NCBI GenBank assembly: GCA_002633005.1
Contig: NMRA01000180.1
Span: 619,955 to 683,954, forward strand
DNA from: Phoronis australis
Lineage: Eukaryota > Animalia > Phoronida
Direction: 5' to 3'
DNA: 64,000 nucleotides
A program made the position numbers and the translations under genes. Shown piece by piece: positions 10,253 through 54,900 of the stretch. How positions within the stretch are numbered: position 1 is the first letter of the stretch; each line of letters opens with the position of its first letter. Under the pieces are notes generated by a model, which worked only from the letters and a program-made list of their open reading frames with translations, was not told the origin of the DNA and made no database searches.

Positions 10253-10419
10253 TGCTTTCCATCAATGTTGTTGCTCGTATGAAGTCTGCGAGGCCGTGCA
10301 TCATTGACACTGATTGACAAGAGAAGACTTTCTTCATTTATTAGGCCTAGACCTGCTTTTCCATAACGACGAAGACTGCCTGTAGTGTTCTTGATACCGC
10401 CGGGGTCTACTGAATTTAA

Positions 10420-18199: not shown

Positions 18200-18222
18200 A
18201 TGACAAGCACCAAGGATAAGGG
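18200..18222 (+). CDS. LOX-A putative exon 1 (MTSTKDKG)
   Basis: aacATG context and a GG|GTAAGG donor in phase 2, which matches the exon 2 acceptor. Confidence 0.55.
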
Positions 18223-24200: not shown

Positions 24201-27200
24201 ACGAAGATGTGGATGGTATGAAGTTTGAGTACGTGCATGTAGATAGAGTGACGCCATGGTCTATATTTTTCAGGAGGGACATGTCTATATTCTAAACTAC
24301 GAAGATTTGGTTGGCCTTGGGAGATTCAGGAAAGGAGAGGACGTCCGTCACTGTGCCAATGCCATAGTGCTCCTCTACGTGCGCCCTTCCGGTCATCTGG
24401 TGCCCATCGCCATCAAGCTGGACCAGGACGACGGACCGATCTGGACCCCAGAGGACGGTCTTGGATGGACCATGGCCAAGATGTACGCGAAGAACGCCGA
24501 CGTTCAGATTCATCAAATGGGAAGCCATCTGATGGGAACACACTTGGTGATGGAGGCCGTGATAATGGCCACATTGCGAAATTTGTCCAGTGTCCACCCC
24601 ATCTACAAGCTTCTTCTGCCGCACACTCGCCTCACCATCGCGATCAATACCCTTGCCAGAGCGAAACTAGTTGGACCTGGCGGTGTAGTCGATAAGACCT
24701 TTTCCGTTTCAGGAGGTTAGCTTAATTTTGAAGTTTACTTCATGCCAAGTCCAATGAAAGAGATAAATTCAGACGAAATCTTGTGACGTAAAGCAACCAA
24801 AATGTGTATAACGCTCGTCAGTGTACAATGCCTGAAATGTGGCCAATTTATTTCGGCAGTACCTTCAACATTGTTGTAGGAAGCGGGCAGATGATGACGG
24901 GTGCCATTGTTAAATGAGTGTTGACGTGTTCATCGTGAACAATGTTCGTACAACAAAGGTTTTATTTGTTACCGGGAAGTCATTACTAATAAGTGACAAG
25001 TATTTTCACGTGTTTTTGAACGTGATTTGAGAACGAGCTGATCAAATTGTCAACAATATAAATATTATCGACTACATGCACGCAGCACCGGTGTGACAGA
25101 AAAGTGACATTCTATCTATAACTAGCATCTTTCGAATAAGTTTCAGGTATACCGCGGATATCAAAAAAGCTGACTCGGATTTCGAAAACTCTGGACAACC
25201 AATCTATGCGAATTCAACTGTATTTGATTTCAACGCCATCACACTAACGGTATACCCCGTACGCGTGTAGGAACTTCTAATAGCCAACATTTTAGAAAAA
25301 TCACACTTGTAAGCCAAAGAGATCGGCCACAGTCTGTGGACAAATATCTTTTCTTTCTAATGACAATAAATATTTTATTTTCAAAGCTTCTGCAATTACT
25401 TTGGCGGAAAACCCGACAAATCGTTGTTTAGACACCTGGCCCTTTTTGATAATTTTTGTTGGTGTTTTTGATTTTGCTTGTACACACATGCAAACTTCAA
25501 GTTCTGGCAGCGCCTCATCGAAGAGACCGTGAAGTGCTCATATGCAGAAATTACGTGATCCAAATTGTGACGGTGTAATTAGCAATGGCAGTAGAACAAA
25601 TTCATCTATCTACGCACCAATATAAAAAAACCATTTGTATGCGAACACAGGACAGCTTTGTAGTTGATCTAATGAGTCTGGCTAAATGTTCCAGGTTAGT
25701 GACAAACTGGAGATAAAACCTACTTGTCCTATGCATGCTGTTGTTGCAGACGGCTATCACATCAAGTTAGTCGAGAGATGTTACCGGAAGCGTTTCCAGT
25801 GGAATAACCTTAACATCCCAAACGAGCTCGCGAGTCGTGGCGTCGAGGACGCCAAGCTACTTCCAAACTATCACTACCGTGATGACGCGCTGCTGCTTTG
25901 GGACGCCATCTTGGAATATGCCAGACAGATGGTTGCTATTTACTACACGTCAGACCGTGATGTGATAGCAGACGATGAGCTGCAAAACTTTATGAAGGAG
26001 GTAAGCACAGGTATGCCGGTAGGTCTGCCGAAATGCCGTCTATAAATTTCCTCCTGTCGTTATATTAACGCCTCATGGTATCTCCCACTAAGCCTTAGTT
26101 TGTATTACAAGCTGATAATCGGTGATTTATCTCCTCAAATTTGTTGTACTAGTTTTGAGTCTATACATACCGTTATATAGACATGTCTGTTCAGTGCGAC
26201 TAAGTATATCAGTATTGATTGTTATGTTCACACTTCTCAAAGTTATTGAATTACCTCTACTGCTTGTGTGTAACTTCAGCTCCACTTGGAGGGCTTCCCA
26301 TCCGCTGAAGGTGACCTTGACAAGCAGTGTCCAGACAGCGTCCGTACAGTGAGCGACTTGACCACCACCACGGCTATGATCATTTTCACCTGCTCTTGCC
26401 AGCATGCGGCTGTCAACTTCGGCCAATTTCATCACATGTCGAACCCACTAGCTTATCCACTAGCGCTTCGCGAGCCTCCTCCGCAGGTTAGTTTTCTACT
26501 GGGCTCCGTGGTAATCTAGTATGCAGCATGCAAGTATGAGCACGTGTGTACTGGAATGAGAATGGGAACCAATGACAAAACACTCTTTTACTTTCATTAG
26601 CGCATAGAACTCAAGCCCTGGAATGCATCTGCGATCTCGCAGCCGCTGAAGTTGCGTCCCGCATGCGTGAGAGTTGTTTACATTAATTTGTTCAGGCGTA
26701 TATACTTGCTATGGAGTTTACCGTCATTTTAATGACACTAAAATCTTTTACACAAAGCGAATTTGGCAAAAACCCGAAAAATGTTGGTAGGGTCTTGAAG
26801 TGGGATGGTATCCTAGATGGATTTAGAATCAAAGAAGCTTCGTTACGTTGAACTGATAATGCTTTAAATTGTTGTGAAAAGCGGCTATAAAGAACGAGAG
26901 GGTAGATATTTCGCATGCATGAAACCTTACGTGCGTTCAGTAGGGACCAGAATCTCGCGAAAACACAGGAGCACGCAAGACTCGCGATATATCGCCATGC
27001 CTTACACGCGAAGCACGAGATCACACTAGCTTCATTATCGAGAGATTCTATGCGTCTACGAAATTGTTAGTTTTTGAAATACGGGCGAATAAAAATTCTA
27101 GTCACCACAGAGTTTCTAATTTTCCTCCCACTTTTGATAAATGCGCGCATGCGCTGTCAGGCATTCAACTAACAGCTGACTGACCTGAGGAATGTTATGG

Positions 27201-30200
27201 CAGATTATCATTTGTGGTCGCATTCTGAATCTGGGCTCGACAGCACATAATGATGCAAGCCGGTGAAGCAAAATAATTCCATGTCCATTTCAGAATGTAT
27301 TTGAATACTGCTACACTTCTATAACTAATTTTTAGCAGTTAGGACTTAATCAATTGCCTCTTAATCGGATTGACTGCTGCTTGAAGTTGCCATTGCTTTG
27401 TTTACATCAAAGGTCAAAGATCACATTCTCCATACAAGGAAATGCACTCCATGTCTTAATTGCTATACCAAATAAGGAGACGTTCTTTGCCTTGTGGAAG
27501 AAAAATCGACAAGTAGGCAAATACACTTAATTTTGATGTGAGCACCTCTCAAAATATATAGAAATGACACATTGATAGTTTTTGGGATACCCTGTAGGCC
27601 TTCAATTCAAACAAAATCCAGTATAGTACAATAACAAGCTGACAGCAACGGAACGGGTGAACAGAAGCTGCAAAATTGTCGGATGGGTTTTCTTCCAAAA
27701 TGACATGCAGCGTGAAGCGTGAGGAAATATTGAGTTCAGCAACTAGGACCGGTAGCGGACGAGGGAGNTGTTCCGTTTTTTTTTTTCTTGAACACCTCCG
27801 GCCCCCGCCCCCACAACTTTTGGGCCACTGTGCACGTACAACCACACTTTGTCCAATTCCCCGAGGCAACATGCTGGGCCCCCCGTCATGGTATCCTAGG
27901 TCTGCCACTGACCAGATACTTTGCTTGTGAGGGCCCGGTACCCTAGAAGTGCTTAGCTATGCAAGTTGAAGAGAAGGCTAAATGTTCAGCTGAGACTATA
28001 CGGGACACGTCTAGACAACCAGCTAGGGAGAAAAAATAGCTGTCTCAGTGTAACATTATTCGTTTTACCTGAGCAAACCTTTTTTGAACAAATGCAATTT
28101 GTAAATAGTGACAAAGGAGTAATATAGTTGAAGTTAGATCCCTGCAGGGTCGGATAGAATGTGGCATTATCGTGGAATTACAATGCTGTGGTTCTAAACT
28201 TTTGACTTAATCAGACTGGGCTTCTGATATTCAACATGTTGTGTAGTTCTTTATACAATGTACATCCAGGTACAAGGAGGCGCATTATCCCGGTCAAAAT
28301 CAACGACAGTGAACTTACAAACCGACGTAACAAAGAAAATGAATCCTGAGTTCACCATTGTTAGTTGGATATTTTAGGAGCATTACATTTCCTGATTGTT
28401 CCATAAAGGCGAATTCGTCAATGTCAAAAAATTCAAGCAATCGTATAATCCTCGGTGGTTATTTATCTCTCCGGTCTGTGAAAATGTCGACTCCACACAC
28501 TCACTAACATGTCGGTCCCACTGAGTCGGCGGTGTTCGTCTCTGGGACCTACTTCCCAATGTCTCATATACTTCATTATAATACGTTAGCAACAATGAGG
28601 TACCAGATTCCACTGCGAGTACTGGAATCTGAATCAGGTATCTATAGGTATTTTCAAAACAGAAGTGAAAACTTCCAAAAAAGTATAACACTCCCCAATC
28701 GACGGTCTCTCTATCGGCTCGACAGTTACCTGAAAAAATGCAACGTAAACATTTCAACCGATTAATGTCATAGTTTGAAAAGTTTCCTTCCTAAATTTAG
28801 TCATCAGTTAAAGACTACCTGAATAATGCCTCCACGATTACGTGTACTAAAGTACGATTGTCTTTATAATATAATGACGTTTGCTGATCGAATGTAACAT
28901 AGGCCTACTGATAATGTACTGTACATATCCGAGAGGGCTGGAAGTGCAATTACATGATCGAGCCGCGGCCGACTGAACTGCACTGGCAGCCATATGGGGC
29001 CATCTTTTCATTAAGAGGCCAACCCCCGGAAAGAGTTTACATGTACGTCAAGCCAGGACAAAAAAACTTGGTAAATATCCCGTCTGATCTCGAGCTCGCG
29101 TGGCGTACTACGAGGTCACATTTTAGTAGATGCCGCAGTTGGAAAATTAGCGGAATACCACCCAATCAGAACAATGGCAGATTTAGGGGGGGGGGGCATG
29201 CCCCCTAAAATTACCATTTGGCAGTTCAGGGTGCGAATTACTGACTAGCATATGCGCGCACCCGGGGGGGGGGTCGGGAGGGCGAATGCACAATGCATAG
29301 GCCTTGAACAAACCCCCCTTTACCTTTTTTGTTTTAGTAATAAGGTCCACAAACCCAAAAATTCGAGACCCCTGCATCCTTACATTTTAGATTGGACGCG
29401 CGCATGTGGCAAAATTCTGGTTATTCCTGTGCCCTGCCCCCCTAACTCAAAATCCTGGATCCCCCTGGATATAAGCTGCATAAATGGTTTCAGCAGAATT
29501 TATCCTGTACAAGACAAACGTAACAAATAGAGGTATTTTAATCGTTGTCTCTGTGAAAGCGACAGCAACGAACCCGTCATATTTCTATTTGTTGTCGTAC
29601 TTTTTCAAACTAAGGGTGTGCCTGAAGAGCGAAAAGTGTATTTTTTCGTAACAATACTTTCCGTTCAACATTACAGCTGCAGTTATTCGAGAAAATGGCA
29701 CTGCTATAGACCTTATTCACGCAGTATTGAGCCTCTTTTTATGTTTAAAAACAATACATTTGAGACATGAATATAACGAGGCAGGCGAAAAATCACTCTT
29801 TGCGCTGTATTAAGCGCAAAATGCATTGCTTTAAAACCTAAAAAGAGGCTCACTACTAAAATGACGACTGCGTGAATGCGGTGTATGTTGAGAATGAGTA
29901 AAACACACGTGCATTATACAAACAGCTTTCCTTAACACAATTGTTATGTTTATACTATTCTTTCGAAATGATTTTTGCTTGATTCGCTTTCTATTATGTA
30001 GCACAAGCGCAACTTCCTAGTAGAGGACATCATGGCCGCCCTACCAGACGAGATGTTAACTGTGGCCGCGGTTGGAATGACGTACGCCTTGACGCGGTAT
30101 AGTGACACAGAGGTAATATTCAAAATGCAGTGTACGCGTTCATACTGGTTTTTCATGTTTCGTGCACCGTCACAAACTAAACATGACGCTATCTTGATCA

Positions 30201-31091
30201 ATACAACAAGTAAATGTTCATTCCTCTCAGATTGTGAGCTCAAGTTGGGGTACCTTTACTACGGGCGGCCACGTTACAAGTACGCAGTGTCTCGGATAAT
30301 GTGTTTACATTTCAGCTACCTGCATGATTTCGATTTGTGATGAGTGAATGGAATGTGCCCGAGCATTCGTTTATTCCAACTTTTGCATTTTTATCATTTA
30401 ATTAACAAACCGGGCACCAGCATCTTAACTGACATACCCTTGCGAAGTGAGTTCATTGCCTGAGCGAAATGTTTTCTATTTACAATGACTGGACTTGATT
30501 GACTTCTCCGGTTTTGTATGGTCAACCGGCTAAGACATTTGATTGACTTGTAAGCCAGAAGTCTTCATAGAGAACCAGCGGAGCCGGCGAAGTCAATCAA
30601 GTCCATTCATTGTTATCTTTTAATCAAAAATTCTCTCACGCATTGATTGGATTGCATTGTCTCAGTAGAGTTAATGAAAATTTTTAAATGTACGGACATA
30701 TCCCCCGATATACTGTTTTTTAGAGTTTGTGTTTTTATACCCGACTCCATTTTTGATATCAAAAAATTACTTGTCAAACATAGCGGTGTTTTAAAAGACG
30801 CATAACCTAAGATATGATATAGAACGACACCAAATTTAGATATTACGAATAATTATTAACATAGACCCATGCATACATGGCAAATGACTATTGCTATCAT
30901 TGCACACATAGGTGTATTTGGGTGATTTCCCAGAGGAACTGTTTGTCGAAGATGCAGCCAAGGTGGCTCAAGCAAAGTTCCGGCAGAATCTCGGCGATAT
31001 CTCGACAAAAATCAAAGCAAGGAATGATGGAAGAGAGTTCAAGTATTTGTATCTACTGCCTGAGAGAGTACCATCCAGTATCGCTGCTTGA
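18200..31091 (+). CDS. LOX-A: animal-type PLAT-domain polyunsaturated fatty acid (arachidonate) lipoxygenase, 11 coding exons, ~683 aa
   Basis: join(18200-18222,19267-19358,20108-20268,20773-21051,22125-22225,23580-23784,24274-24715,25750-26000,26280-26486,30002-30112,30912-31091) = 2052 nt. All introns GT-AG with consistent phases. PLAT motifs (YTAEVYT, GTDNNVYL, DDLEAG, DVGDL, DDWRLDKV), NGPNP, iron helix HQMGSHLMGTHL, NYHYRDDALLLW, QHAAVNFGQ and C-terminal YLLPERVPSSIAA. Exon 1 is the least certain. Confidence 0.93.
19267..19358 (+). CDS. LOX-A exon 2 (start of PLAT domain)
   Basis: tttcag| ...GPVYTAEVYTTDEKEWKRTGTDNNVYLSLC |gtgag. 92 nt, as in the LOX-B exon. Confidence 0.85.
20108..20268 (+). 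CDS. LOX-A exon 3 (PLAT)
   Basis: GVHGVTERVLLDKRWHDDLEAG...DDWRLDK|gtgag. 161 nt. Confidence 0.9.
20401..20546. mobile_element. Short MITE (GTTCAGTAACGCTAGGACCT termini), copy 2, in LOX-A intron 3
   Basis: Reverse complement of 15852-16003. Confidence 0.7.
20561..20640 (-). mobile_element. tRNA-derived SINE head (not a functional tRNA)
   Basis: The minus strand reads GGAGGCAGTGTGGCCCAATG...GAGGTCGTGAGTTCGAGTCCCAC, with A-box and B-box-like motifs but no clean anticodon arm. Confidence 0.6.
20773..21051 (+). CDS. LOX-A exon 4
   Basis: ggcag|VIITNN...FPVYAWI...LPKFVRFFDAKQYDIQ|gtacg. Confidence 0.9.
22125..22225 (+). CDS. LOX-A exon 5
   Basis: acag|HNFDVAKKKFGISTLIEKLHTWDKPEHVAHIGM|gtaat. 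Homologous to, and the same length (101 nt) as, LOX-B 50621-50721. Confidence 0.85.
23580..23784 (+). CDS. LOX-A exon 6
   Basis: WDDDVVFGTMVLNGPNPAMIRRCSKLPENFPVT. 205 nt. Confidence 0.92.
24274..24715 (+). CDS. LOX-A exon 7 (iron-binding helix, Coffa site Ala)
   Basis: LVPIAIKL...WTMAKMYAKNADVQIHQMGSHLMGTHL...HPIYKLLLPHTRLTIAINTLARAKL. 442 nt. Confidence 0.95.
25750..26000 (+). CDS. LOX-A exon 8
   Basis: RGVEDAKLLPNYHYRDDALLLWDAI...DDELQNFMKE|gtaag. 251 nt. Confidence 0.95.
26280..26486 (+). CDS. LOX-A exon 9 (third His and Asn iron ligands)
   Basis: IIFTCSCQHAAVNFGQF. 207 nt. Confidence 0.95.
29172..29467. mobile_element. GGCGGATCCAG/AAATCCGCC-type MITE containing a nested CATGCGCGCACCC MITE (29251-29406)
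   Basis: The outer element is the reverse-complement homolog of 45553-45716. The inner element has termini tatgcgcgcaccc / ggacgcgcgcatg with a near-perfect 5-bp flank TAGCA/TGGCA. Confidence 0.6.
29707..29887. mobile_element. Hairpin MITE (ATAGACC...TTCACG terminus)
   Basis: Outer arms attcacgcagt / actgcgtgaat. Inner arms gagcctctttttatgtttaaaaacaatacatt / aatgcattgctttaaaacctaaaaagaggctc. Confidence 0.65.
30002..30112 (+). CDS. LOX-A exon 10
   Basis: HKRNFLVEDIMAALPDEMLTVAAVGMTYALTRYSDTE|gtaat. 111 nt. Confidence 0.9.
30482..30613. repeat. 132-bp hairpin (MITE-like) in the last LOX-A intron
   Basis: acaatgactggacttgattgacttctccgg ... ccggcgaagtcaatcaagtccattcattgt, with ~30-bp near-perfect arms. 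Confidence 0.7.
30912..31091 (+). CDS. LOX-A exon 11 (terminal)
   Basis: VYLGDFPEELFVED...FKYLYLLPERVPSSIAA-TGA. 180 nt. Confidence 0.93.
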   Translation: MYLGDFPEELFVEDAAKVAQAKFRQNLGDISTKIKARNDGREFKYLYLLPERVPSSIAA

Positions 31092-33689: not shown

Positions 33690-33888
33690 CCTAAAAATCC
33701 ACAGTCTCGACGTTTGCAACATATCATCGAATTCGAGACACACCTCGAGCAAAGCGGGCAAGTGTCTGACACAAATAGTAGAAAAATTGAATACGGAACT
33801 GTTGTTAAATATTGCTAAAGCACTACGTGAATCAGGCCCGAACCCCCTCCCCCCGCGGGAAAGGTACAACCCCAGCCTCTCCGTTAAA
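33690..33888 (+). repeat. ~195-bp dispersed repeat, second copy at ~62440-62633
   Basis: Near-identical blocks, e.g. attgaatacggaactgttgttaaatattgctaaagcactacgtgaatcaggcccgaaccccctc. Confidence 0.8.
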
Positions 33889-34219
33889 GCTAGTACATAA
33901 ACGAAATTGTTGCAGCTACTCGTACTACTAACTACAACGATAACCAAGTTAGTAATAATTTTGAATTATGATTCAAAGTGCTTCACGTAATCATCGAGTC
34001 GTACCTGGCCAACTTCACCCGAGTTGGCAAAACGTAGATGACAGTATCGTGGTGGATAATTCAATAGTCCTACTTCATTCTCTTTTATAAATGTATGTTC
34101 GTACTCATTTTTCTCGTATTCTGATGGCATGCCGGCAATTTCCATGTGCATGAAATCCAAATAAAGGGTTTCATTACACGGGCGTTGTTTTCGGTATAGC
34201 TGCAACACTGAATGCATCT

Positions 34220-34410
34220 AATAACGCTCGTAATCACGATCAAGAGTTCGTTCGTGTTTTACAACCGAAATCCTTCGTCCATAATTACGCTCGTGATTAT
34301 GATTGAGACTTCGCTCGTGTTTCGAGACCGAAACCGTTAGTCCATAAGCACCCCGTGATTACGACGAAGACTTCGCTCGTGTTTTGCCGCTCAAATCGCT
34401 ATATCCAATA
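34220..34410. repeat. Degenerate ~59-bp tandem repeat (about 3 units); the region ~34300-34810 has a diverged copy at ~36870-37345
   Basis: Recurring gacttcgctcgtgttt...gtccataa. The motif gagtgatttaccaccaac.tttagac occurs at ~34590 and ~37127. Confidence 0.6.
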
Positions 34411-39849: not shown

Positions 39850-39913
39850 TTAATGAATAGGCATTCAAGTTTGTGAGTGCTCAACGAGTTCTCAGCTACG
39901 CTAGCGGCTTTTC

Positions 39914-39930
39914 ATGATGGCGATGCAAAG
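39914..39930 (+). CDS. LOX-B putative exon 1 (MMAMQS)
   Basis: ATGATGGCGATGCAAAG|GTAGGA, phase 2, matching exon 2. Confidence 0.45.
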
Positions 39931-42900
39931 GTAGGAGTTATCGAAATTGTACTCCAGTTGTCCTATATACCATTGTTGTTTCATTACCTGAAATGTTACT
40001 CTTTAGCAACTAAAACTTTCAATTAGTATCTTGATTCTTTTTAAGTTGTTTGGTTTCTGTTGTCACTGCGAAATTAACATGAAACAGCCCGAGTTCATGT
40101 CCTGGACGACTTCATACAAACATAACCTGGACAACTTGATGCAAACCAATTTAAGGACACGTTTAGGTGATTCCTTATTTCCAATAATGTTAAAAATTCA
40201 ATGTAGAGTTCACTATCGATTTGTGTCAAAGTCAAAAAGTGAGTAGTAATGAGACTCAAACAGCATAAGAACTAGGACAATCAGTGTTTTCACAAGTCCA
40301 CAGATACGCAGTAGAAGCGAGGATCTTAGTCGAGTCCCTATTAAGGACTGTTTCATGCAACAGGGCACGGGAATTCAAGGGCGCGAGATGCCCACCACTA
40401 GGCCTGGTTGAATTTCTGTATTCGAGCGGTGGTCCAGATGGATTAATGGGCTAGAACGTCTGCACTGTTAGCAGAATGGCCAGAGTTCGGGTCCCGCGGA
40501 AAGAAAACTTTGCAGACTTATATTCAATAAGTCGCGTGATGTGATCTTAGAAGTGTTTAAGAGATCCAGCTCATTATAATTGCGACACAATTTTAGTGCG
40601 TCTGCTGGCCTGAGTTCGGCAATCACAGCTGCTTCAATAAAAATATGCCCATGACGTGGTGACGGTACCGAAATTACCAATGGACATGTCTTGTGACACT
40701 GAAGTAAAAAACAAGGGCCTATTTCTGATGGTTTTATGTTCCGCACGTCTATTTCTGAAAATAACTTAATTTCATTTGTGCAACTTGTGCAAAGTCTGAG
40801 AGTATACACATAACTGCCTTTTAATTAGATAAGTTCTTTAAATTATTTTTAAACTGATGCACACACCCTTCTTCAACAATTATACCAAATTTCTTTCTTA
40901 CGCAACTTTTCATGAAACACACTAGATACTAGATCATGTAGTTACTTATGACACTCATCATGCTCATCACTCTCTTTATCATATAAAAAGCCATTCTTCA
41001 CACAGTCACTGATTTCTTATTTGAGCGATAAAACATTTCTGAAGAGACTAATGTTCTGTCTGAAACTGTAGGGAGCAGTCATGCATAGTAACACATATGG
41101 AGGCAGCTATATTGAAATAGTTTTGCACCTTCTCATTTTTTCGTGATTGGCTAAAGAAGCAGGATACAGCGCTAACTCTTGCCCAGTTATGTTATATTAG
41201 TAGGGCATTAAATTTGATTTTTAAAAATGTACAAGTTTAAATGCGAGGACTTCTCAAGTGTTGAAAGCTTGAAGATATATGATGCCACACAATACTGAAA
41301 AATTAAGTTGCCCCCCTGACATGGTCACAATATGAATAGACTGGAACTACAGTCAATGGACAATTGCCTCCGAACATTGTATTGTTATTATACATATTGT
41401 GTTTCTGCATTTCTTACTTTCTAAAACCACTCTGTCTTTATGCATACATTTGGAAAATGAGGTCAACCATACAGTGCGTGCTATACGTGATTCTGTCAAT
41501 GAGGACAGTTATACCGGCTGTGGGAACACAAAAGTGCTTACAAATTACACCACGACTACGTAATCGTCTACCTGAGGGAGGATTGGAGTGATGTAGACTA
41601 CAAAGTAATGTCTCAACTATAGACTTTACATTAAAAAATCAGACCAAAGTCTTCTCACTGCTACAACACCAAATTATTTTTAATTCTTGTACCCCTGAAT
41701 TCCACCATTTTTCGCAAACTTTGGGCAACTGCCTCTGCAAAGAATCGAAGTAAAATGACACTAAAAAAAAAAAACTTATGCCAGGCCTTCACGAGCGACT
41801 GCTTCGATTAGGTGTGCCTTGAACACTTTGCAATTTTCTAAAGCCGGCATTGGAGACAATCCCTGAGCATACAAAAACACCTGTTTTGAAAAATTGTATT
41901 TTTAACTGAGTTACTTAATATTGGAACCTTAAACTTCTCTTTTAGTCATTACACAGCAGAAGTGTACACGAGTGCCAAGAAAACCTCGGGCTGGAAAGGA
42001 ATAGGCACAGACGATGACGTTCACTTGTCAATACACGGTATGCACGAATTTGACGGTGTTAGATTTCCAAACACTGACTATTTTGTATAAAACATACGCC
42101 GAGTTGAATAACATTGTAGCTGTTATTCCTACTTATATAAAACCCTTGGCGAAAAGAAAACCACATTTTTAGCTTCATTTCATTGTTTAGCTGGATAGAA
42201 ATTGAAAATAGATTTATGCCGTTCACTTTACTAACATCGCTCTCCTAATATATGGCCTTATCGTGATGTGATTCTGTTTTCTTTTACCAGTAAGAACATC
42301 GGATCAGCGTCTTAATAAAACCTTACTTGAGTTGGTAACGGACAATCAGACGGCAAAGGAAATTACGAGATCAAGTTTATGAAAGGAAAAAACTAATTCG
42401 AGTTTCGATTTTTAGCCAGCTGAACAGGGTGAAATGTCGCTGTAATCACTACAACATCAGTTCCTAAACATGAGACACCGGTAAGGCAAAAGAAGCAGTC
42501 TTGGTTCTATTCTCTACCAAGACTCACTAATTTTAAGACACCAACGTGCATCAAGTTCAACCGCTATACAAAGATACGTCAGCAAGGATAAACAAGGTTT
42601 GAAACGCCATGATTTGCCAAACGATGAAAAAACAAACAGGTTACACATCATTTTTGTTCTTGTGAGGTTTATTTTCTTTCTTAAAAATGAGTAACAAAAG
42701 AATATTGCACTCCCGACTCGCGTTAAAAACAGAGACCAGAAACCATTATGTTTTTTTAGCTGATCAGACTTCATTGTTCAGTGTAAGTGTCAGAGTAAAT
42801 AAAGCTCCCTTCATGATTGAAAAAAAGACCAGAAACCATTATGTTTTTTTGAGCTGAGCAAACTTCATTGTTCAGGGTAAGTATCAGAGTAAATAAAGCT

Positions 42901-45900
42901 CCCCGCATGATTAAAAAAAAATCGGCAGCCAAATTGAAACCAAGGGAGTCAATAAAAAAGACACGTCATCAATTTATAATTATTCCCCCCAGGCAGGAGT
43001 TTTTTGATCAAATTTCCTTTAGTTAGGGGTTTGGTTTTCATTTTCTTTGAGACTTGAAAAAATGTTAGGACGCAATCATCTCATTTTGATATAAATTCGA
43101 CGTATTCTGCCACACCTAGTGGTGTTCCTATTAAGAAGTGGACGACTGACGTCAGTTTTCAGACCCGTTCGACTACTGTCGCCCATCCCAGTGGCAAATG
43201 TTTGCGTCCGCGGCTGTGTCTTTTAAACACCTTTAAGGACCTTTGTGAAGTTAAACAAACGTAATCCTATGAATGTGACAACGGATGACAACGAGTTTGG
43301 ACGGATCCGACTACCACTGTGTCTCCTAGTGATAATTTTAATGTTTATATTTTCCTCTGCATCTTTGAAGGGCCTTGGCGCTTTTTCATGAAATTTGGCA
43401 CATATGGGTTTCTATTAAAAAGAAATTGTCATTTTCCCGTTTCAGGCGGATTCGAGGTATTCTGAGCCACCTAGTGGCCATTTATATTTGTGAATTTTGG
43501 CGTGAACTTTCTATCATGGAAACCACTTAGAAGAACGTTATGAAATTTGACAGATGTTTTACCCTTGGGGGGAGCACTGCTGCCGGTGATTTTCAGACCG
43601 GCCCTACTGCTATGGCAATTTTCCTTTCTACCAAGCTCTTTGATGGATCTTTAAGGAATTTGACTTAATGTGTTCCTATTGTGGAGAGCAACTGACATGG
43701 ATTTTGGGACAAAGACAACTACTGTGGGGTCTCCTAGTGGCAGCTACGTTTTTTTCGTTTGTTCCTATATCTGCTTCTTTGGTGGATGTTCATCAAATTT
43801 GACATATGCGTTGCTATCACGAATGCGACAGCACATGCTTCGTTTCAGAACGATTTGCCTTCGCTGTGCCCCCTAATGGGCTATTTGTTTTTTGTCGTCA
43901 GTTTTACTTTCCGACAAACTGCTTGAAGATTGAATCATGATGGAAGGTGGTAGATGTTTTCCTGTCTAGGAAAGAACAGGTGACTTGCTCCCTGTTCCCC
44001 CGGTGTAAATGTTTAAAATATTGACCATCCCTTGTTGTATCTGGTACAAACAGTGGGCGCTTATGAACTCTCCGCGTTGGTCTTGTTTATTTTGTGAAAC
44101 ACTTCAATGAGGTAGTTTCAGCGAACTTTTTCATTGGATAATTTGAATATTTCAGGTACACATGGTGTAACAGAACGTACCATGCTGGATAAATGGTGGC
44201 GAGATGATCTAGAGCCTGGTGCGTGTGACGTCTACAAGCTCCAGGGTGGCGATGTAGGGGACATCCTGTACCTGACTTTAGAAAAGCAGGGAAATGATGA
44301 CTGGCATCTCGCTAAGGTAAAACAACATCTGCAAGAGGGAACCTGCGTTTCTGGCACTGGGTATCTGAATTAAATGACAACCCACTCTGAAATGCTGCCC
44401 TTTGTGCTCCTTCTAAAGATGATTGCATTTATGTTTCAAAAAGAGCAGATACCTTACTATCGCTGGCAAATGTAAAGTTCAGATGTTCACATAACAAGTT
44501 TCTTTGATACGAGATGTTCCTTTCATACATGTACATCGGCATCAGTGTATGTGAAGGGGAATGCGCCCCTGGACGGTGATGAACGCTATGTAAACAAAAG
44601 CATGGTGGCCTTATGGAAGCCGGGGAATTTTCAGAATAAAATTTGAAATTTTAAAAACTAACGAGGTTTTAAAATATTGGTAACGTAAGGCAATGTAAAC
44701 CTGTGATCCACGCATTACTTAAACGATCATATAAGCCATTGCAAAGACAAAATTACTAAAATTACTGAAATTCTCACGGAGTGCTGCTAGCTGAGCGCCT
44801 GGGAGGTTTTGCCGGCTCAATCGAAAAGACAATCACTGAAATGTGTAAAGTTTAAAAAATGGTATTATACAGTGACAACCTTTTTCGTTGTTATGTTTTT
44901 ATGGTACCTATTTTTCAGTTGTTTATAAACCGACAAGGCGATCAGCTGTCAAGGGGGCCGCTCTCCGGTGCGCCCTTACATCACTGCATTCCCAAAGTTT
45001 TTACTATCGGTCTAAAAATTCCTTGACCCTACGCCACTTGAGATTTATTATAACAAAAAGATTTGAGGCATGCGTTCATGTAAAACACTTGAACATTAAG
45101 TAGAAAAAAATTAATAAAAACCCATGGAAATTGATGATCATACAAACAGCAGTCAGTATGCGTGCATGGAAAGTCGTGTCAAATTGTATGCAACAATGAT
45201 TGACCAATTGTGTACATGTGCATATTTAGAATTGAGGGCATAGGCCAGTTTGAATAAAAGCTGGGAGCAAACTTTTGCAAAACGATAGAGCTATAGAAAC
45301 TGATATGTTAACATTAAGTATTTCAATGAAAAAAGAAGAATGCACGATACCAAGAACATCCTGTACTGGTTGGTAAGACACGCGCTTTGGATCGGTTAGC
45401 CGCGTGTGCCCTGAACACCACTGCTTGGGCGGCCGAAGCCGGAGGTCGGAAGTGTGCATTTGCTCAGACCCAATTTCCCGAAAGGTGATTGGAATTGTCT
45501 ATTTCAGTTTATACCAAGAAATAATAAATAATAATTACACTAATATGCAGACCAGGGGCGGATCCAGGATTTTTAGTTAGGGAGGGAGGGGAGCAGAGTA
45601 TTACCTAGTATTTTGCCTGTCAGACATTCGCACCTGGGAACTGCCAAATGTGATCTGGTAGAGTTTTAAGGGAGGAAGGGCATGACCCCCTTGGCCCCCC
45701 TCTAAATCCGGCACTGCGGACGTTTTTTTTAAAAAAAAAAACGCATGTAAAGGGTGTTGAGGTGTCTCAAGGAAAATTACTTCAGCGATAGGCTACTTTT
45801 CTTTAACTATCAAGTATCACATGTCCTAGTACCGAATTCATCTTAGCGAGTACAGTCTGAAATGACATACATGTAGTCTCATAGTTCAAATAGTTTTGTC

Positions 45901-48900
45901 ATAGACTCTGTTGTAAAACAACACGCCGATGAACTATAGTTATAAAAAGTCGTTCGCAGTTATGTTAATTTTTACACCAATTAATGTAACCCTTTTATCC
46001 GACCATGATGTGCGGAATCGCAGATTTTTTCTGTCAATAACAAGCACACTTCCATCTGATTGGCCATCCAGAACGAGAAGGACAACAAAAAGTTCACACA
46101 GAAGCAACACATTGAGATACTGTAACCATTTCAAAGTTTTGATTTATTTCAAAATATACTAATTTCAAAATATTACCATCTCGCAGTAAAATAGCACCGT
46201 GATAGTAAAAGGGAAATGTTTATCTGGTTGAAAGTTACTGTACCGTAATGGTACATGCACCCCATTTCAGCAAAAGTCAGATTTCAACCAACTCTAATTT
46301 AATCCCTCAATTTAGTTGGATCCGACTTTTACTGGCACACAATTACTTACTAGTATATTTGTATTGACAACACCCCGCCACAAAATAAATATGACAAAAC
46401 TCAATGGTCATAAACTCTATCTGCCCTGCCCTACACATGCGCGCACCCAGGGGCGCTCGGGGGGCAAAACGGTCCGCCTCAGAAAAACAAAAACTCCGAG
46501 TAAACGAGCCAAAAGTCCACTAAAAAGGCGCAAATGCACAATTTATAATTCTGAACGTGTTACCCCGTTTTTTGTCCTCCCGCTCAGTAAAAGGTCCACA
46601 TCGTCAGAAATTCGAGCCCCCCATATTAAACGTTGGGTGCGCCCATGCTACATACCCAGGCATTAATACACTGTAAGTATCAGAAGACCCATGATAAACA
46701 GGACAGAATCTAAAAATGATGTTTTTCCTCAAGTAAGACAGTTGCAGATTTTAATAACTTGCCAGGCTACATAACATTTGTCCCATCTCTTGAAATCTAC
46801 AGAAACAACCCATCCACCGTCCCAATATAACATTGTGGTTTGTAGCATTCTTGGGGTATCCCGTCCTTCGATCCTGCCCTATTTGTAAAAACTTGGCTAT
46901 AAATCTTCGAATCGGTGTCCACTCTGTAAAAATGTACAGCTATTAAAGGAAAATGCCACCCCATTTAATTAGTCTTTTTACCGTCTTAATCCGTCTGTAT
47001 CCACATCGCCTCTTCTAGGGTCGACCTCACCTTGTCGAGAGGTGTCGCGTTAACCTGTGAGGAAGCTGAGAAGCGACGCAGCGACGTCAGTGGTTCGTCT
47101 GCAGAGTGAATGTCGCTATATTGCTGTGCATCGGTTCCCGCTTGTCCGCACTATGAAGCTGCGAAGAAAGCGGGTATATCTTTTTTTCGACTTCCTCGAG
47201 AGCCTGAAATGCTTAGGAAGTAGGCCTAGCTCGCGGTAGTAAAGAATGAAAGGTACAAGAACTATCCGTACGTTCCGTTGCCTGTGCCTGTTCACGGCGC
47301 CTCTCTAGTATTTCTTGATCAGTGTATTCCGGTTCGAACCGGTAGCCTGTGAAACCTATAGTAACGATCCGACCCGTGTGGTCTTCGTCGGATGAGCTCT
47401 TGACTAAGTCAGGATTGGCGCCGGGCGAGTTGCCGCGTAGACGTTTATTATTCTGCGTTCTGTTTCAGAATGAATTATTCTCAAAACCAATGCTTACCTA
47501 ATCAATGTCTGTCTCATAAGATACAATTTGTATTGCATTGGAATGCTCGTAAGTGCCAGTGTTTTAAGAAGCCAGCAATGAATAACACACTGCGTTACCG
47601 GCTTTTGATGCCGGCAGCAAAGGCAACGAGGCCGTGTGCATGCTAATTCAGTGTTCGCTGACAGAAAGCTGTTGTGAAACAATTACTCGATTTTCTATGC
47701 TATGGTCACATGTTAGGGAAATCTTTATTTAGAAATACAAATACATTATTCAAATCATTGTTACTGTACAACCTTTGCAATGACTGTCTGTGGAAGGGGA
47801 ACCCGACTTCGCGGCCCCCGACAAGTAAGTAGATTTTCAGTTTCATGGCTAATTCACATAAATAATTACGTGCACATTATTTCTTTGGCTCACTATTATA
47901 GTCTTTCGTGACTGGAGGTTTAGTTTCCAACTCAAGCTGGTTTATGTTCGTGCCAGTCCCGGCGGTCGCGACGGGCCTGATCGGGTTCCGAGCCACAGGC
48001 CGGGATGACAAGCGTTTTGTGTGTTTAGACCTCAAAAAATCACAAGTATTAAATACACAGATCTAGATTCTCCTGTCTGTATTTCACGGAAAAATACTTC
48101 GAAATTATCTCCGAAAAGACCCCAAAATCCTGCTACGGACCTTGGTAAATTGGCCTGCCGTACTTTGTAGGCTACGATGTGTCCAAATACCAGTTAATCC
48201 GTGACATGGAAATAAAACAACAAGTTTTTACAAGAACTCGGTGTGTTTTTAAGGGGTTTACATCGAATTTTGACAATTAATTGGTGTTAAACGATGAATT
48301 TAAGCGATAAGCTCACACCACTTATCCATGTTGTGAATTGCTGAACAGACTGCGTGTGAAACCAATTACGTCATTGGATAATTTCAACACCTCCGTCTGT
48401 CGTCAGGTGTCAGGTAACGCAACCGAGCCTGCCGTTATCGAGTAGAGCTACTCGATCTAAATTGATACAGAATAGGTTGTTTTTTTGGGTGGCATTCTCC
48501 TTTAATCTTGTGGTAACTTTTTGTGTTTCTTCGTTGCTAGAAAACAACAGGTATATTGGTCACTAAACCCTTAAAGACGTATCAGACTAAGAAGGAAAGT
48601 CAAGTAAAAGACCATTAAACATTGACTTAAGTGGGTGTTCTAGGAACAAAATGAAGTTGAACAATATTGTTTCTGCGATCGGATTCTCATCCACAAAATC
48701 ATTTTATTTCAGTTTCAATTTTTAAACCTCAAAAGACAAAAAATACATCATTGATTCTGGGTCAAACTTTGACATCTACTGTATTTCACCTAAAGTGAAA
48801 GTACCTGCGTGACGGCAAATGGTCTAAAGTTGAGTTTATCACTTTATCACGGTGTATATGTGTTGATAACCACGGCAGAATAATTGACTAGGGTCGTATT

Positions 48901-51900
48901 TGAGGAAAGGGAGACTATTTTCAAGAATTCTATAGTTTTGAATCGTGTGTTGAGGCTTGGGTCTCGACAGTTTTATAACCAATCTAAAGTCGAAGGTCCC
49001 ATATCTGTGGGATTTTTAAATGTACACGACCGAGAACAGCGTCCCCTTTTGAAGTCACGTGCTCGATCGTTATTGCCTACTTTCAGGTTGTTATTACCAA
49101 CAATGAAACCAAGTGGAAAACTTCGTTTCCATTTTACGACTGGGTAGAGTCGGGCGCAACGAAAATACCAACAGCCAAAGCTGTGTTGCCTTTCCAAGAA
49201 ACCAATGAAGACCTAAAAAACCTTCGCGGTGAGGAAGTCCGCCGAAGGCAGGAAATGTATCCATTCAGTCAAGGGAACGATTCTCTGCCTGGTTTCATTG
49301 GAATTGAACAGCACGAAAACCTGCCCAGATTCGTCCAGTTCCACGATGCAAAGGCCTACGATTTCAAGGTAATGCTATCTTACAAGCTGTAAGAGTGGTG
49401 TGTTACAGATAAGTTACTCTGGTCTATCCCTTCTCCAATAGAACTTTTTATGAATAGGATGAACCGACGCATGTGCTTCCTAGATCATGGATTTGTAGGA
49501 GTTGAGTCCAGAATCAAGGAAGTGCCACCAAGGCGATCGTATGCCCCGTATGCTGGCAGACGATATTGGATAGATGCTACCTGTTCATTCTTGTGTCTAT
49601 TAAAAACTGAACTCGTGGTTGCTTGGAATGCTACCGAAATGAGGTGATCCCTACTCGGGATAACAGTCCTCTGTGTACATTGTGCAAAAGATACAATAAA
49701 GCACACGCCTTTTTACAAAACTAATGTAGAGCTGTTTGCAACTGTAGTCTGTATGTATATTACATAACACCATGTATTGACTTGAGCAGTGGACTGGTTT
49801 TTAGGCTAAGGTCGTTTTGCTCAGAACATGTATAGAAAGTAGGATTTTGACGCTTTTGTGCCATTTAAGGCGATTTGTTATGTTTTGATGAGCCATACTA
49901 ACTCAAAAGACCTGCTGGAACTTATTTAACATCTTAAGGACCTGGTCCATTATCACGTTAGGCCGGGGAACTCCCTAACACTTACGATATGCATTTGTTT
50001 GACTCTGGTCTAAAATCATTTTTTCACATCTTCGACAATTTTGACTAAGACACATCTGGTATAGTCCATCAGAATAGGCTTTTAACTAATTTCTTAGCTT
50101 GTGTTCATAAAGGTTAAACATTTCCATTTGATGGAACAACGATTCAAAGGGGACTAAAAATATGGCCACTTCACAGAAGTTCAATGGCTCGATTTCAGAA
50201 ACCACCAAGAAGCATGTTATTGTGAGCGCTTCTAAGAAAGATAACAAAACAGATAAGATATGTTTAACAAGTAGATCAGTTACAACCATTACAAATAGTT
50301 GATATGAAGAAATCTTGTACAGAGCAACACTGACATTTCACTGCTGAGGTCAACACACATCTGTTGTTACGTAATTGACTGTTGAACTGAACTCGCAGTT
50401 GTTGCTTTTCTGACCAACTGCGAAGGTTTCTCTGGTCTGTGAATTTTAAAGTACTGTTCCAATAGAATTTACTGTGCGAAATCAACCTGTGAAATAAGGT
50501 TGATTTTACAATATCAAGCATATCTGTTACACTAGTTCTTCATGGTCCATTAGCGCATAAGAATGTTCAAACATCTTTTTGAGGCGCCTCTTTCCTGACA
50601 TTTGCAAACTATTCCCGCAGAATAACTTCGATGAGGCAGTAAGGAAGTTCGGAATAAGCTCCGTAATTGAAACGCTTCATTCGTGGGATAAACCTGAAGA
50701 CCTGGCACACATCGCTAGGAGGTGAGGCAAATGGGCTCGTACTGATTCATAGGTCTATATTCGGCTTACGAGACATGACATTCAAACCTGTTCATGCACC
50801 ATGCTGATTTAGCTCAAGTTACTGTTGGAAATGTTCATCAACTTTTTCCTCATTCAGTTTCAGGGCTTGGAATTGTCATCTTTTTCATCTTTTTTGATTT
50901 CCGATTTCCTCTTTTCCGTGTCTTTTTATCGTTATTTTGACTTTATTCATAAAAACACATTTATTTCAGTAAAATGTTACAACATCAAAATATTTTTTGT
51001 GGAATGATATACCGCATGGTAATTTTCCTCTTTTTGTCATTGGTCACTCCAGGTTAAACGTAGTCTTTGGCTTGGGTGGAACGGCACGTCGTAGTTGTTT
51101 TCGGCCAAATTTGTTTACTGTCATGTTTTTTTGAAATTACAAAAGGACTTGAGAAATGTACAAAACCGCTTTGTGACTTTCTTTCAAAATTTCTGGTAAC
51201 ACGTCTTATGAAAAATTTACAACGGTTTGGATTTACCATTGATTTTATATCTTAAAATGTTAACTCATTCATTCGAAATTTTACAACAGCGATAGTCTGC
51301 GTTTAATTAAAAAAGGTTTAGACGAGGATGCATGTAACTTCGTTTGGGAGGCCTTCCTTGCGTTTCACTGACAAGGAAAATCTGTTGATTTTCTACATAT
51401 TTAGGGTTTCCTCTTCTGAGGAGAAAGAATTTCAACAGTTTTACGTGGACAGATGGGACGACGATACTGTATTCGGCAACTTGTTTCTGAGTGGACCTAA
51501 CCCCGTTCTGATCAGGAAATGTTCCAAACTTCCTGATAACTTCCCTGTAACGGACAAAACAGTCAAGGCATCTTTGCAACGTGGTCTCACACTTGAAGCA
51601 GAAATGCAGGTATTTGTTGGTGTAAAAGGGGTACCAGAGCTATCGTAAGTGGATCGATAGCTGGAACATAGGTTCTTGAATAATTCCAGGACTGCTATTT
51701 GTCATAAATAATGCTTTCTGTGAGACACAGCTTCATAAAAAAGTTGTGCGGTACTTAACAATGCGGTTGTGGTTCGTGCATTTCCCAAAAATGTGCTAAT
51801 GTCAGCAAGGCTGCAACCAGTCTAGTTCATATCCGTCTCCTAAACATTTTGTAAAAGTTGTGCTGCAAACTAAACGGTCACCTGGAAACGGCCTCGAGAT

Positions 51901-54900
51901 CTTTGAATAATCGCTTGACGTCTACCCTCGTTTGTTTCGAACTCAAAGAACCACTAAAAAGACGTGACTTCTATGATTCAAGTTTGAGTTCTTACATGTA
52001 TTTAGAGTGGCGCCATGGTCTATATTTTTAGGAGGGACATGTCTATATTCTAAACTACGAAGATTTGGTTGGCCTTGGAAGATTTAGGGCAGGAGAAGAC
52101 GTCCGTCACTGTGCCAATGCCATGGTTCTCCTCTACGTGCGCCCTTCCGGTCATCTGGTGCCCATTGCCATCAAGCTGGACCAGGACAACGGACCGATCT
52201 GGACCCCAGAGGACGGTCTTGGATGGACCATGGCCAAGATTTATGCAAAAAATGCCGATGTTCAGATCCACCAAATGGGAACGCATCTTATGGGAACGCA
52301 TTTCGTAGCAGAAGCGGTTGCAATAACTTTGCTTCGCAACATCCCGTGTGTCCACCCCATATACAAGCTTATTATACCGCATACTCGCCACACCATTGCC
52401 ATCAACACCGTTGGCAGGCTCAAACTTGTTGGACCAGGTGGTGTCGGTGACAAGACTCTTTCAATTTCTGGAAGTGAGTATCTGACGAAATGTTGACATT
52501 TTAAGTATTGCTATTTAAAATTTCAGTCAGATGACAGCTCGTACCGCTATCTCGTCTCTTCTCTTTCTCATGGAACATTTGGCATTTGTTATACGAACGT
52601 GTTTGCGATTATTTTTTATTCCCTCTTAACCAACCCTAGAACGACATCTGATGACTAGAAAACTCGGTTGTTAAAAAGCGATTTCATACAACCATTCCCA
52701 TTTATTGTTAAAAGGCCAACGTCAGTTGAGACGTGGTAAAAAGAGGTTATTTTACAAAGGCAAATGAAAATATCTTCAATATTGAGACTGTAACTCTATT
52801 TATGATGGACTTGAACAATTACAAAAAGCGAAACACAAAACAAACTAGTGAATTATTACTGACAATTTATAGAACCACGAAGATGTTGAAAAGAGTAAGC
52901 GAAAGCAACCATAATTGTCTTTTCACTTATTCCCAACTAATGAGACACAAAGTGAGGTGTGCATTCACGAAATACGACGGGATGTTGGACCTTGTTTCAA
53001 GATTTGTCCCTGACTTGTTTGTTTCCAATCAGCCGATTTTGAGTCTTTGCTGTTCGCCCAGGTCAGTAAAGAGCGTGCTTTTTCTTTCTGAACACTGTCA
53101 GTGACCCAGTGACGGACACACCTGGTNACAAGCTTATTATGCCGCATACTCGCCACACCATTGCCATCAACACCGTTGGCAGGCTCAAACTTGTTGGACC
53201 AGGTGGCGTTGGAGACAAGACTCTTTCAATTTCTGGAAGTGAGTATCTGACGAAATGTTGACATTTTAAGTATTGCTATTTAAAATTTCAGTCAGATGAC
53301 AGCTCGTACCGCTATCTCGTCTCTTCTCTTTCTCATGGAACATTTGGCACTTGTTATACGAACGTGTTTGCGATTATTTTTTATTCCCTCTTAACCAACC
53401 CTAGAACGACATCTGATGACTAGAAAACTCGGTTGTTAAAAAGCGATTTCATACAACCATTCCCATTAATTGTTAAAAGGCCAACGTCAGTTGAGACGTG
53501 GTAAAAAGAGGTTATTTTACAAAGGCAAATGAAAATATCTTCAATATTGAGACTGTAACTCTATTTATGATGGACTTGAACAATTACAAAAAGCGAAACA
53601 CAAAACAAACTAGTGAATTATTACTGACAATTTATAGAACCACGAAGATGTTGAAAAGAGTAAGCGAAAGCAACCATAATTGTCTTTTCACTTATTCCCA
53701 ACTAATGAGACACAAAGTGAGGTGTGCATTCACGAAATACGACGGGATGTTGGACCTTGTTTCAAGATTTGTCCCTGACTTGTTTGTTTCCAATCAGCCG
53801 ATTTTGAGTCTTTGCTGTTCGCCCAGGTCAGTAAAGAGCGTGCTTTTTCTTTCTGAACACTGTCAGTGACCCAGTGACGGACACACCTGGTGTGGTATTC
53901 TTAGTCACGATTTCCTATGGGTGTTTGACTGCAAATCCTTTCAGCTATCATTTAAATTAATTAATTAATTAATTAATACGTGTTACCAATATCCATGTCC
54001 TCATAAAAATGCATTATAGATTTCAAGATCAACCTTTGTCTGCAGTTCACATTTCACTTCTGACTTCAAGTTCTCTCTTGCTGGTAGGAAGCTGCAAGAA
54101 AGGTGCTTTCCCGTCAAAGTTTGCAACAGTCGATGTCAAATTCTTAAAATATGTTAAATCAATAACGCATGGACCTTCCCAAGCACGATGATGCAACGTT
54201 TAGACTGGCCGCAGTGCGTGTTTTTTCGCATTAAGTCACTTACTTCCAATTTTTCAAAGTGATGCCCTCTAAAGAACTGGTAACCTCGTCTAAACACTCT
54301 CAGCGGAACATTCCACTCTGCGTGCAACATTCCCCACCTGCTTAAACGTCAACTTTGGCATATCTTTTGACAAAACTTCCACCATTGTTTAAGCATGGGT
54401 AACCTCGTTTTGAAATCCGATAGTCGGAAGTGCGCTTGCTTGTGATACATGAATATGAATGCCATTTGGTTTACGGAGTGTGCAGCCTATTGTACAACAA
54501 GTGAGCACAGGTCACTTACACACTCATGTGCGCACCCAGGGGGGCTCGGGGGGTTCATTCGAGCGAAGTGGGCAAAAAGGTCCGCCGCAGAGAAGCAAAA
54601 AGTCCGAGAAAACTAGACCTAAATTCATTAAGATGGCGCAGACACACAGCTCACAATTCTGAAGGTGGTACCCCGTTTTTTTGTTTCAAGTCCTCCCGCT
54701 TTTTTGTCAACAAAAGGTTCACACCGTCAGAAATTTGAGCCCCCATATTAAAGGCTGGGTGCGCGCATGACACTGAACTGTAGTTACTGTTGCTAGGTTA
54801 TGTTGACAGGTAAAAATCTTCATTGTTGCGTTATGCTTATGCTTTTACGCTGACAGGCTTTGTTTTGCAGACGGCTATCACATCGAACTTATTAAAACGC

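What the first reader, a model, noticed from the sequence alone, without database searches (positions are those of the whole stretch)
24655..52415. Tandem lipoxygenase pair with opposite stereo-determinants: Ala (predicted S) in LOX-A vs Gly (predicted R) in LOX-B
Seen: at the same exon 7 offset (+381), LOX-A has TIAINTL-A-RAKL (GCC, 24655-24657) and LOX-B has TIAINTV-G-RLKL (GGC, 52413-52415). The duplicate segment after 53128 also keeps Gly. Established: this is the Coffa-Brash position, Ala in S-LOXs such as mammalian 5-LOX (TIAINTKAR) and Gly in R-LOXs such as coral 8R-LOX and 12R-LOX, although exceptions exist. Other pocket residues also differ: DKTF vs DKTL at the Sloane positions, and Met vs Ile at the Borngraeber-2 equivalent in exon 10. 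Both have Val at the Borngraeber-1 equivalent. Inference: a local duplication produced an S/R (and probably regio-) divergent enzyme pair, i.e. an undescribed invertebrate oxylipin module making distinct or sequentially oxygenated products.
Basis: partly seen in the sequence, partly recalled or inferred. Interest (0 to 1): 0.82.

Follow-up and report, generated by a model that had tools for sequence, protein, structure and literature searches.

The report
Tandem lipoxygenases differing at chirality switch
Two neighbouring, intact and transcribed fat-oxidising enzyme genes (lipoxygenases) of an invertebrate differ by alanine versus glycine at a known active-site switch, so they likely make different oxygenated lipids, an arrangement already known from the human gene cluster.

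Summary
LOX-A has GCC (Ala, 24655) and LOX-B has GGC (Gly, 52413) at the same exon offset, in register with coral 8R-LOX Gly427 and ALOX5 Ala410. Both genes are open reading frames (683 and at least 676 aa, 70% identical, dN/dS about 0.12) and are transcribed. The copy after 53128 is an assembly overlap, not independent support. The S/R reading is about an even bet: the rule fails in four Gly-bearing fish enzymes and is only partly switchable in others. If it holds, products differ in position as well as handedness (15S/11R or 12S/8R). An Ala/Gly split between relatives is common (at least 14 changes on a 99-protein tree), and humans keep both types in one cluster. Nothing supports a sequential 'module'. 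Both proteins end in Ala instead of the iron-binding Ile/Val (1 of 87 homologs). Their closest named relatives are nemertean allene oxide synthase-LOX fusions, yet no such domain lies in the window. A gene-conversion tract stops just before the iron and specificity helices. Verdict: new members of a known family, modest interest.

The parts
18200..31091 (+). LOX-A gene, 11 coding exons (18200-18222, 19267-19358, 20108-20268, 20773-21051, 22125-22225, 23580-23784, 24274-24715, 25750-26000, 26280-26486, 30002-30112, 30912-31091), 683 aa; the first exon is inferred
   Evidence: GT-AG borders and no internal stop; PF00305; strand-specific RNA depth over exon-bearing bins
41946..57663 (+). LOX-B gene, 10 coding exons found (41946-42037, 44156-44316, 49087-49368, 50621-50721, 51405-51609, 52032-52473, 54871-55121, 55342-55548, 56990-57100, 57484-57663), at least 676 aa; first exon not found; GC donor after exon 8 inferred
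   Evidence: three GT..AG joints seen in RNA reads
24655..24657 (+). Coffa-Brash codon of LOX-A, GCC, Ala415
52413..52415 (+). Coffa-Brash codon of LOX-B, GGC, Gly
   Evidence: no variant at the equivalent codon in RNA reads
24274..24480 (+). Likely gene-conversion tract shared with 52032-52238 (about codons 288-356), reaching some 55 bases into the upstream intron
   Evidence: 2 of 34 four-fold sites differ vs 95 of 171 elsewhere; borders chosen after seeing the data
31086..31091 (+). LOX-A last codon (Ala) and stop; Ala stands where Ile/Val normally gives the terminal iron ligand
57658..57663 (+). LOX-B last codon (Ala) and stop
53128..53891 (+). Assembly overlap repeating 52363-53126 (3' part of LOX-B exon 7 and intron); not a gene
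   Evidence: 99.2% identical, follows a single N at 53127; single-copy depth and one contig across its end in X1
63265..64000 (+). 97.8% copy of LOX-A exon 8 end, intron and exon 9, after a single N; the exon 9 acceptor reads AA instead of AG. Other haplotype or third, decaying copy; unresolved

Best explanation
These are two intact, transcribed lipoxygenase paralogs from an old tandem duplication that likely oxygenate opposite ends of the same activated fatty-acid diene, LOX-A (Ala) predicted to give an S and LOX-B (Gly) an R hydroperoxide. Shown: gene structure, iron-ligand His/His/His/Asn, clamp Leu, site register, purifying selection, transcription. Inferred from established LOX chemistry: Fe(III)-OH removes a bis-allylic hydrogen; the Ala methyl shields one end of the radical while Gly opens it, so the products would differ in position as well as handedness. 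The pair I think most likely with arachidonate is 15S (A) and 11R (B). Both lack the carboxylate-binding Arg182 of coral 8R-LOX and have Leu where its small Ala589 deepens the pocket, and A has the bulkier pocket floor (Phe, Met). 12S/8R is nearly as likely because Borngraeber-1 is a small Val. The two enzymes would act in parallel rather than in sequence.
For: Register with 8R-, 11R- and 5-LOX. H372, H377, H560, N564 and L419 are present in both. No stops; dN 0.19 vs dS about 1.55 over 673 codons. RNA on the coding strand for both, with splice joints for B. The rule and the paired products 8R/12S, 12R/8S are stated in PMC13059375 section 7. Mutant data (15S to 11R, 8S to 12R, 8R to 12S, 12R to 8S) are in PMC11582214 passages. 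The closest solved structures are coral R-LOXs. Arg182 and Ala589 equivalents were read against the legend.
Against: Four Gly-bearing fish enzymes make mainly 12S-HETE, and the switch has minor effects in some enzymes. Even responsive mutants give 1.4-1.8:1 mixtures. The triad positions do not predict specificity outside mammalian ALOX15, so the regiochemistry guess is weak. Pocket divergence is not above background (5 of 20 vs 153 of 559). The terminal Ala departs from the usual Ile/Val ligand and could lower activity. The Ala codon was not verified in reads. No activity or structure was obtained.
Confidence: 0.5

Rival explanations
1. Both are active, but the Ala/Gly difference does not set chirality here. 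They make the same main product, or both S or both R products, and were kept for different expression or substrate preference.
For: Published exceptions. 15 of 20 pocket positions are identical. The site changes often across the family (at least 14 changes). Depth over A and B exons differs between the three RNA samples (low counts, different likeness thresholds).
Against: The rule held for the coral R-LOXs, which are the closest characterised relatives. The label is conserved on the tree (14 changes vs a shuffled mean of 26.8, range 21-32), as expected of a functional site.
Confidence: 0.3
2. One or both proteins are weak or non-canonical enzymes (for example a hydroperoxide isomerase like ALOXE3, or poorly iron-loaded) because of the terminal Ala or other changes.
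For: Terminal Ala in 1 of 87 homologs that end at that column. Reviews give Ile, occasionally Val. ALOXE3, an Ala paralog beside the Gly enzyme ALOX12B, is mainly an isomerase.
Against: The chain ends in exact register, so the main-chain carboxylate is available. The Ala is kept in both paralogs despite near-saturated synonymous sites, and all other ligands are intact. 13 of 87 homologs end in residues other than Ile/Val (activity unknown).
Confidence: 0.12
3. One reading: the pair is a coupled pathway in which one enzyme's product is the other's substrate (double oxygenation, or an ALOX12B/ALOXE3-like relay).
For: Adjacency, and transcripts of both types in the same RNA runs. The vertebrate cluster is a precedent (the relay itself is recalled).
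Against: Adjacency is explained by tandem duplication. No co-expression, localisation or product data exist. No partner domain in the window.
Confidence: 0.08

Closest known systems
Coral 8R-LOX domain of the allene oxide synthase-LOX fusion (Plexaura; PDB 3FG1/4QWT) and coral 11R-LOX (PDB 3VF1)
   Same: Best solved-structure matches for exons 7 and 9; same iron ligands, clamp Leu, and Gly at the switch in LOX-B
   Different: No AOS domain in the window; Phe in place of Arg182; Leu in place of Ala589; terminal Ala instead of Ile; Ala at the switch in LOX-A
Nemertean (Tubulanus polymorphus XP_074649222, XP_074651699) and bivalve (Potamilus, Mya) LOX proteins
   Same: Nearest named relatives: the two Tubulanus proteins group with A and B at 96/93; the bivalve group joins at only 90/57. 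LOX-A is 38% identical to XP_074649222
   Different: They carry an N-terminal AOS-like domain (E 3.6e-56 and 1.3e-39 to Acropora AOS), have Gly at the switch, and the Tubulanus proteins end in Ile; none was found characterised in my searches
Human ALOX12B / ALOXE3 / ALOX15B cluster on chromosome 17
   Same: Clustered paralogs with Gly (12R) and Ala at the same site
   Different: Independent duplication: A and B fall outside the clade (100/100) that holds the named vertebrate ALOX proteins
Human ALOX5
   Same: TIAINT motif, Ala410 equivalent in LOX-A, aromatic residue at the Tyr181 position; best match for the last exon
   Different: Not orthologous; Trp599/His600 are Ala/Ala and Phe359 is Val

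Membership tests
Animal-type non-heme iron lipoxygenase | Lipoxygenase catalytic domain (PF00305) | tested here: met
   exon 7 of A E 1.7e-29, of B E 2.5e-21
Animal-type non-heme iron lipoxygenase | N-terminal PLAT beta-barrel | tested here: met
   exon 3 of both matches the N-terminal part of a profile of homologs annotated PF01477 (E 1e-10 and 4e-10); a single exon did not reach Pfam PLAT itself, only a sub-threshold ATS3 hit
Animal-type non-heme iron lipoxygenase | Three His plus His/Asn/Ser iron ligands | tested here: met
   H372, H377, H560, N564 in A; equivalents in B
Animal-type non-heme iron lipoxygenase | Chain ends in register so that the terminal carboxylate can bind iron | tested here: met
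   last residue aligns with the last residue of 5-LOX, 8R-LOX and 11R-LOX
Animal-type non-heme iron lipoxygenase | Terminal residue Ile or Val (usual, not invariant: 13 of 87 homologs differ; not used as a defining test) | tested here: not met
   Ala in both genes
Animal-type non-heme iron lipoxygenase | Dioxygenation of polyunsaturated fatty acids | not testable with these tools
   needs enzyme assay
S-lipoxygenase (LOX-A) / R-lipoxygenase (LOX-B) | Ala / Gly at the Coffa-Brash position, clamp Leu four residues on | tested here: met
S-lipoxygenase (LOX-A) / R-lipoxygenase (LOX-B) | Chirality of the product | not testable with these tools
   needs chiral HPLC; exceptions known
Allene oxide synthase-LOX fusion | N-terminal catalase-like AOS domain | tested here: not met
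   AOS profile finds nothing in six frames (best E 3.4), while the LOX profile from the same 12 proteins finds 8 of 11 exons of A and 8 of 10 of B at E<0.01; a 522-base gap and B's missing first exon remain
Coral-type 8R-LOX | Arg182 carboxylate anchor and small Ala589 | tested here: not met
   Phe and Leu in both genes
ALOX5 orthologue | Groups with vertebrate ALOX5 | tested here: not met

The most novel reading that the evidence does not exclude
A spiralian lipoxygenase lineage shed the allene oxide synthase domain of its fusion ancestor, switched its terminal iron ligand to Ala, and split into an S- and an R-specific enzyme through the single Ala/Gly base. Gene conversion homogenises the sequence up to, but not into, the specificity helices. 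This would be a natural, 70%-identical test pair for the Coffa-Brash rule and an active Ala-terminated lipoxygenase, in a group where my searches found no cloned enzyme.
Probability: 0.3. Interest if true: 0.5.

Novelty: new member of a known kind. Interest (0 to 1): 0.3.

Why it matters
If the prediction holds, one invertebrate would make both R and S hydroperoxides from sister enzymes. Among the 6 Ala/Gly-discordant sister pairs on my 99-protein tree (a library thinned to 50% identity) this is the closest, so it would be a clean natural test of stereocontrol and a possible source of biocatalysts. Activity with a terminal Ala would widen the accepted iron-ligand rule. None of this changes what lipoxygenases are known to do, and clustered R/S paralogs already exist in mammals.

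Tried and rejected
No whole genome is held, so paralogs elsewhere could not be counted. Treating 53128-53891 as a real duplicate: rejected. AOS exons upstream of either gene: none by tblastn with 44 N-terminal pieces or by profile with a positive control. LOX-B first exon: two scans gave no credible candidate. Enrichment of differences in the pocket: none. Profile search for more invertebrate relatives: the 120 listed of 359 hits were nearly all vertebrate ALOX5, and no listed protein was the window's own. Near-length search: 2 hits of 35 candidates. Exon 10 alone found no PDB match. The direction of the Ala/Gly change is left open: the unnamed sister P0011 has Ala, the next relatives Gly, and two histories are equally short. 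No RNA holder was listed by index; RNA runs came by species label. Earlier-findings look-ups returned nothing. Paper searches listed no biochemical study of a spiralian LOX pair and no experimental test of a terminal Ala; the only hit was a computed Ile673Ala ligand-binding energy (PMC11311652), which says nothing on activity. The library lacks most subscription papers. No structure or complex prediction was run.
Full report
Observation. The window holds two lipoxygenase genes on the + strand. LOX-A has GCC (Ala) at 24655 and LOX-B GGC (Gly) at 52413, each 381 bases into a 442-base exon. Exon 7 of A aligns with coral 8R-LOX with the Ala opposite the Gly that precedes R-K-E-L, which are Gly427 and Leu431 in the legend of PMC13059375. 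Through a fish ALOX5 (P0046) that is collinear with the human structure, it aligns with Ala410. Coral 11R-LOX also has Gly there. Ala and Gly codons differ by one base. For B, no variant was listed at the equivalent codon in 3-7 reads per RNA run, in a complete table. For A the table was cut (373 rows hidden), so the base is taken from the assembly alone.

Gene models. A has 11 coding exons and 683 codons without a stop. B has 10 found exons and 676 codons, with one GC donor; its first exon was not found. They share exon phases and 470 of 673 aligned residues. Synonymous sites are near saturation (pS 0.66, dS about 1.55) and dN is 0.19, so the duplication is old and both copies were under purifying selection. 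About 18-19% of each of three RNA runs with the same species label was laid. A shows depth on the coding strand only in exon-bearing bins, mainly in X5 and X6; no A splice joint was among the rows shown (101 hidden), and its exon 7 depth is inflated by B-type reads. B shows three GT..AG joints: exon 7-8 (0, 1, 4 reads), 9-10 (6, 13, 18) and 10-11 (2, 3, 0); the GC-donor joint was not seen. X5 and X6 express a B-like variant with 5 differences in the 111-base exon 10, also present in DNA run X1. It keeps Gly, and may be an allele or a third gene.

Artefacts. 53128-53891 repeats 52363-53126 at 99.2% across a single N. In X1 one contig of depth 49.7 runs through its end, the same depth as unique DNA beside it, so it is an assembly overlap. 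63265-64000 is a 97.8% copy of part of A, after another N, with a broken acceptor; allele or third copy is unresolved.

How unusual is the difference? Among 153 of 159 homologs whose alignment covered the site, 88 have Ala, 44 Gly and 21 something else. On a FastTree tree of 99 proteins (the two window proteins, P0011, P0161 and 95 long-aligning homologs) the Ala/Gly label changes at least 14 times, against a shuffled mean of 26.8. 6 of 28 sister pairs are discordant, this pair being the closest. The site is conserved yet switches repeatedly. In humans all ALOX genes but ALOX5 lie in one cluster, including the Gly enzyme 12R-LOX and the Ala enzymes ALOX15B and ALOXE3 (passages of PMC11582214, and PMC3840004).

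How good is the rule? Brash and Oliw (PMC13059375, sections 6 and 7 read) give it a general role with a few exceptions. [quoted passage not shown] Mutants convert 15S to 11R and 8S to 12R only as 1.5-1.8:1 mixtures, 8R to almost pure 12S, and have minor effects in murine Alox5 and human ALOX15. Zebrafish LOX1 and three other fish enzymes have Gly and make mainly 12S (PMC10531496 passages). The original 2004 paper was not read. Coral Gly enzymes gave 8-HETE as predicted (PMC3925239 passages). I put main products of opposite chirality at about 0.5.

Mechanism. All iron ligands and the clamp Leu are present. Inferred: ordinary LOX catalysis with O2 added at opposite ends of one pentadienyl radical. 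Neither protein has the Arg182 of 8R-LOX (Phe in both), and both have Leu for its pocket-deepening Ala589. A has Phe and Met at the pocket floor. This leans to 15S for A and 11R for B. Small Val at Borngraeber-1 leans to 12S/8R, and the aromatic pair at the ALOX5 cork positions leaves head-first binding (8S/12R, 5S/9R) open. Triad positions predict poorly outside mammalian ALOX15, so this is a weak guess. Pocket positions (list matching the 5-LOX site residues tabulated in PMC11311652) differ at 5 of 20, against 153 of 559 in the domain: no sign of concentrated change.

(1) Both proteins end in Ala, in exact register with the terminal Ile of 5-, 8R- and 11R-LOX. Of 87 homologs (among 96) that end at that column, 56 have Ile, 18 Val, 6 Leu, 2 Met and one each Gln, Lys, Pro, Arg and Ala. 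Reviews say Ile, occasionally Val (PMC11593649 passages). The ligand is the main-chain carboxylate and both old paralogs keep Ala, so tolerance is likely but untested; the 3' end was not checked against a spliced transcript beyond read depth. (2) In an IQ-TREE tree of 39 proteins, A and B are sisters (100/98), joined by an unnamed exon-sized fragment with Ala (P0011, 100/99) and then two Tubulanus proteins with Gly (96/93). Those, and the bivalve relatives, carry an N-terminal domain homologous to coral allene oxide synthase. No such domain is detectable in the window, whereas the control profile finds most LOX exons. Loss of the domain is the simplest reading; a 522-base gap, B's missing first exon and an open frame upstream of A's ATG (from 18155) keep it short of proof. 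The organism is thus likely a spiralian (inference from the tree). (3) The first 69 codons of exon 7 differ at 2 of 34 four-fold sites against 95 of 171 elsewhere (p 2e-8, borders chosen after inspection), and the likeness extends into the intron. This looks like gene conversion ending just before the iron-binding and Coffa helices, where 15 of 31 such sites differ. One tract cannot show that selection guards the boundary.

Literature coverage. Nine searches (listings and abstract starts only, except for the papers named) showed no study of this pair or of a spiralian recombinant LOX. The library omits most subscription journals and no supplements were read. PMC12586643 (passages) uses the same sequence-only inference for dinoflagellate LOXs, so such predictions are routine.

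Verdict. Real and correctly aligned; functional divergence plausible; not a new kind of system. New members of a known family with two sequence oddities worth an assay. Interest 0.3.

Noticed in passing
window 31086-31091 and 57658-57663: Both lipoxygenases end in Ala rather than the Ile/Val iron ligand; 1 of 87 homologs does so (P0076, a distant unnamed protein).
   Followed up: partly
window 24221-24480 vs 51980-52238: Likely gene-conversion tract between the paralogs covering the intron end and first half of exon 7, stopping before the iron-binding helix.
   Followed up: partly
window 5232-6767 (+): Long open frames (407 aa plus an adjoining 103 aa in another frame) for a signal-peptide-like, Thr/Pro-rich protein with about eight short Cys-containing repeats; no Pfam hit above threshold, Atlas leads only to pacifastin/VWC-type clusters at 0.79.
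   Followed up: partly
window 56990-57100 and 54871-55121: RNA runs X5/X6 and DNA run X1 hold a LOX-B-like variant about 4-5% diverged (including Ile to Val, Ser to Asn and Glu to Lys changes); divergent allele or third paralog.
   Followed up: partly
window 63265-64000: 97.8% copy of LOX-A exons 8-9 whose exon 9 acceptor reads AA; runs off the window end.
   Followed up: partly
window 55122-55123: LOX-B intron 8 begins with GC where LOX-A has GT; not confirmed by reads.
   Followed up: partly
window 18155-18222: A strong acceptor at 18153-18154 and an open frame of 15 codons precede the proposed LOX-A start; there may be a further upstream exon.
   Followed up: no
window 10416-12110 vs 46940-48505: Two inverted copies (80-88% identical) of a 1.6-kb repeat, one inside LOX-B intron 3; probably a transposon.
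   Followed up: no
window 12880-14679 (-): Broken LINE-like reverse transcriptase fragments (weak RVT_1 hit, E 8e-4).
   Followed up: no
P0016, P0174, P0175, P0319, P0024 (homologs): The AOS-like domains of the bivalve proteins and one Tubulanus protein appear to lack the distal His that P0001 and the coral proteins keep (alignment), suggesting decay of the fusion partner in several spiralian lines.
   Followed up: no
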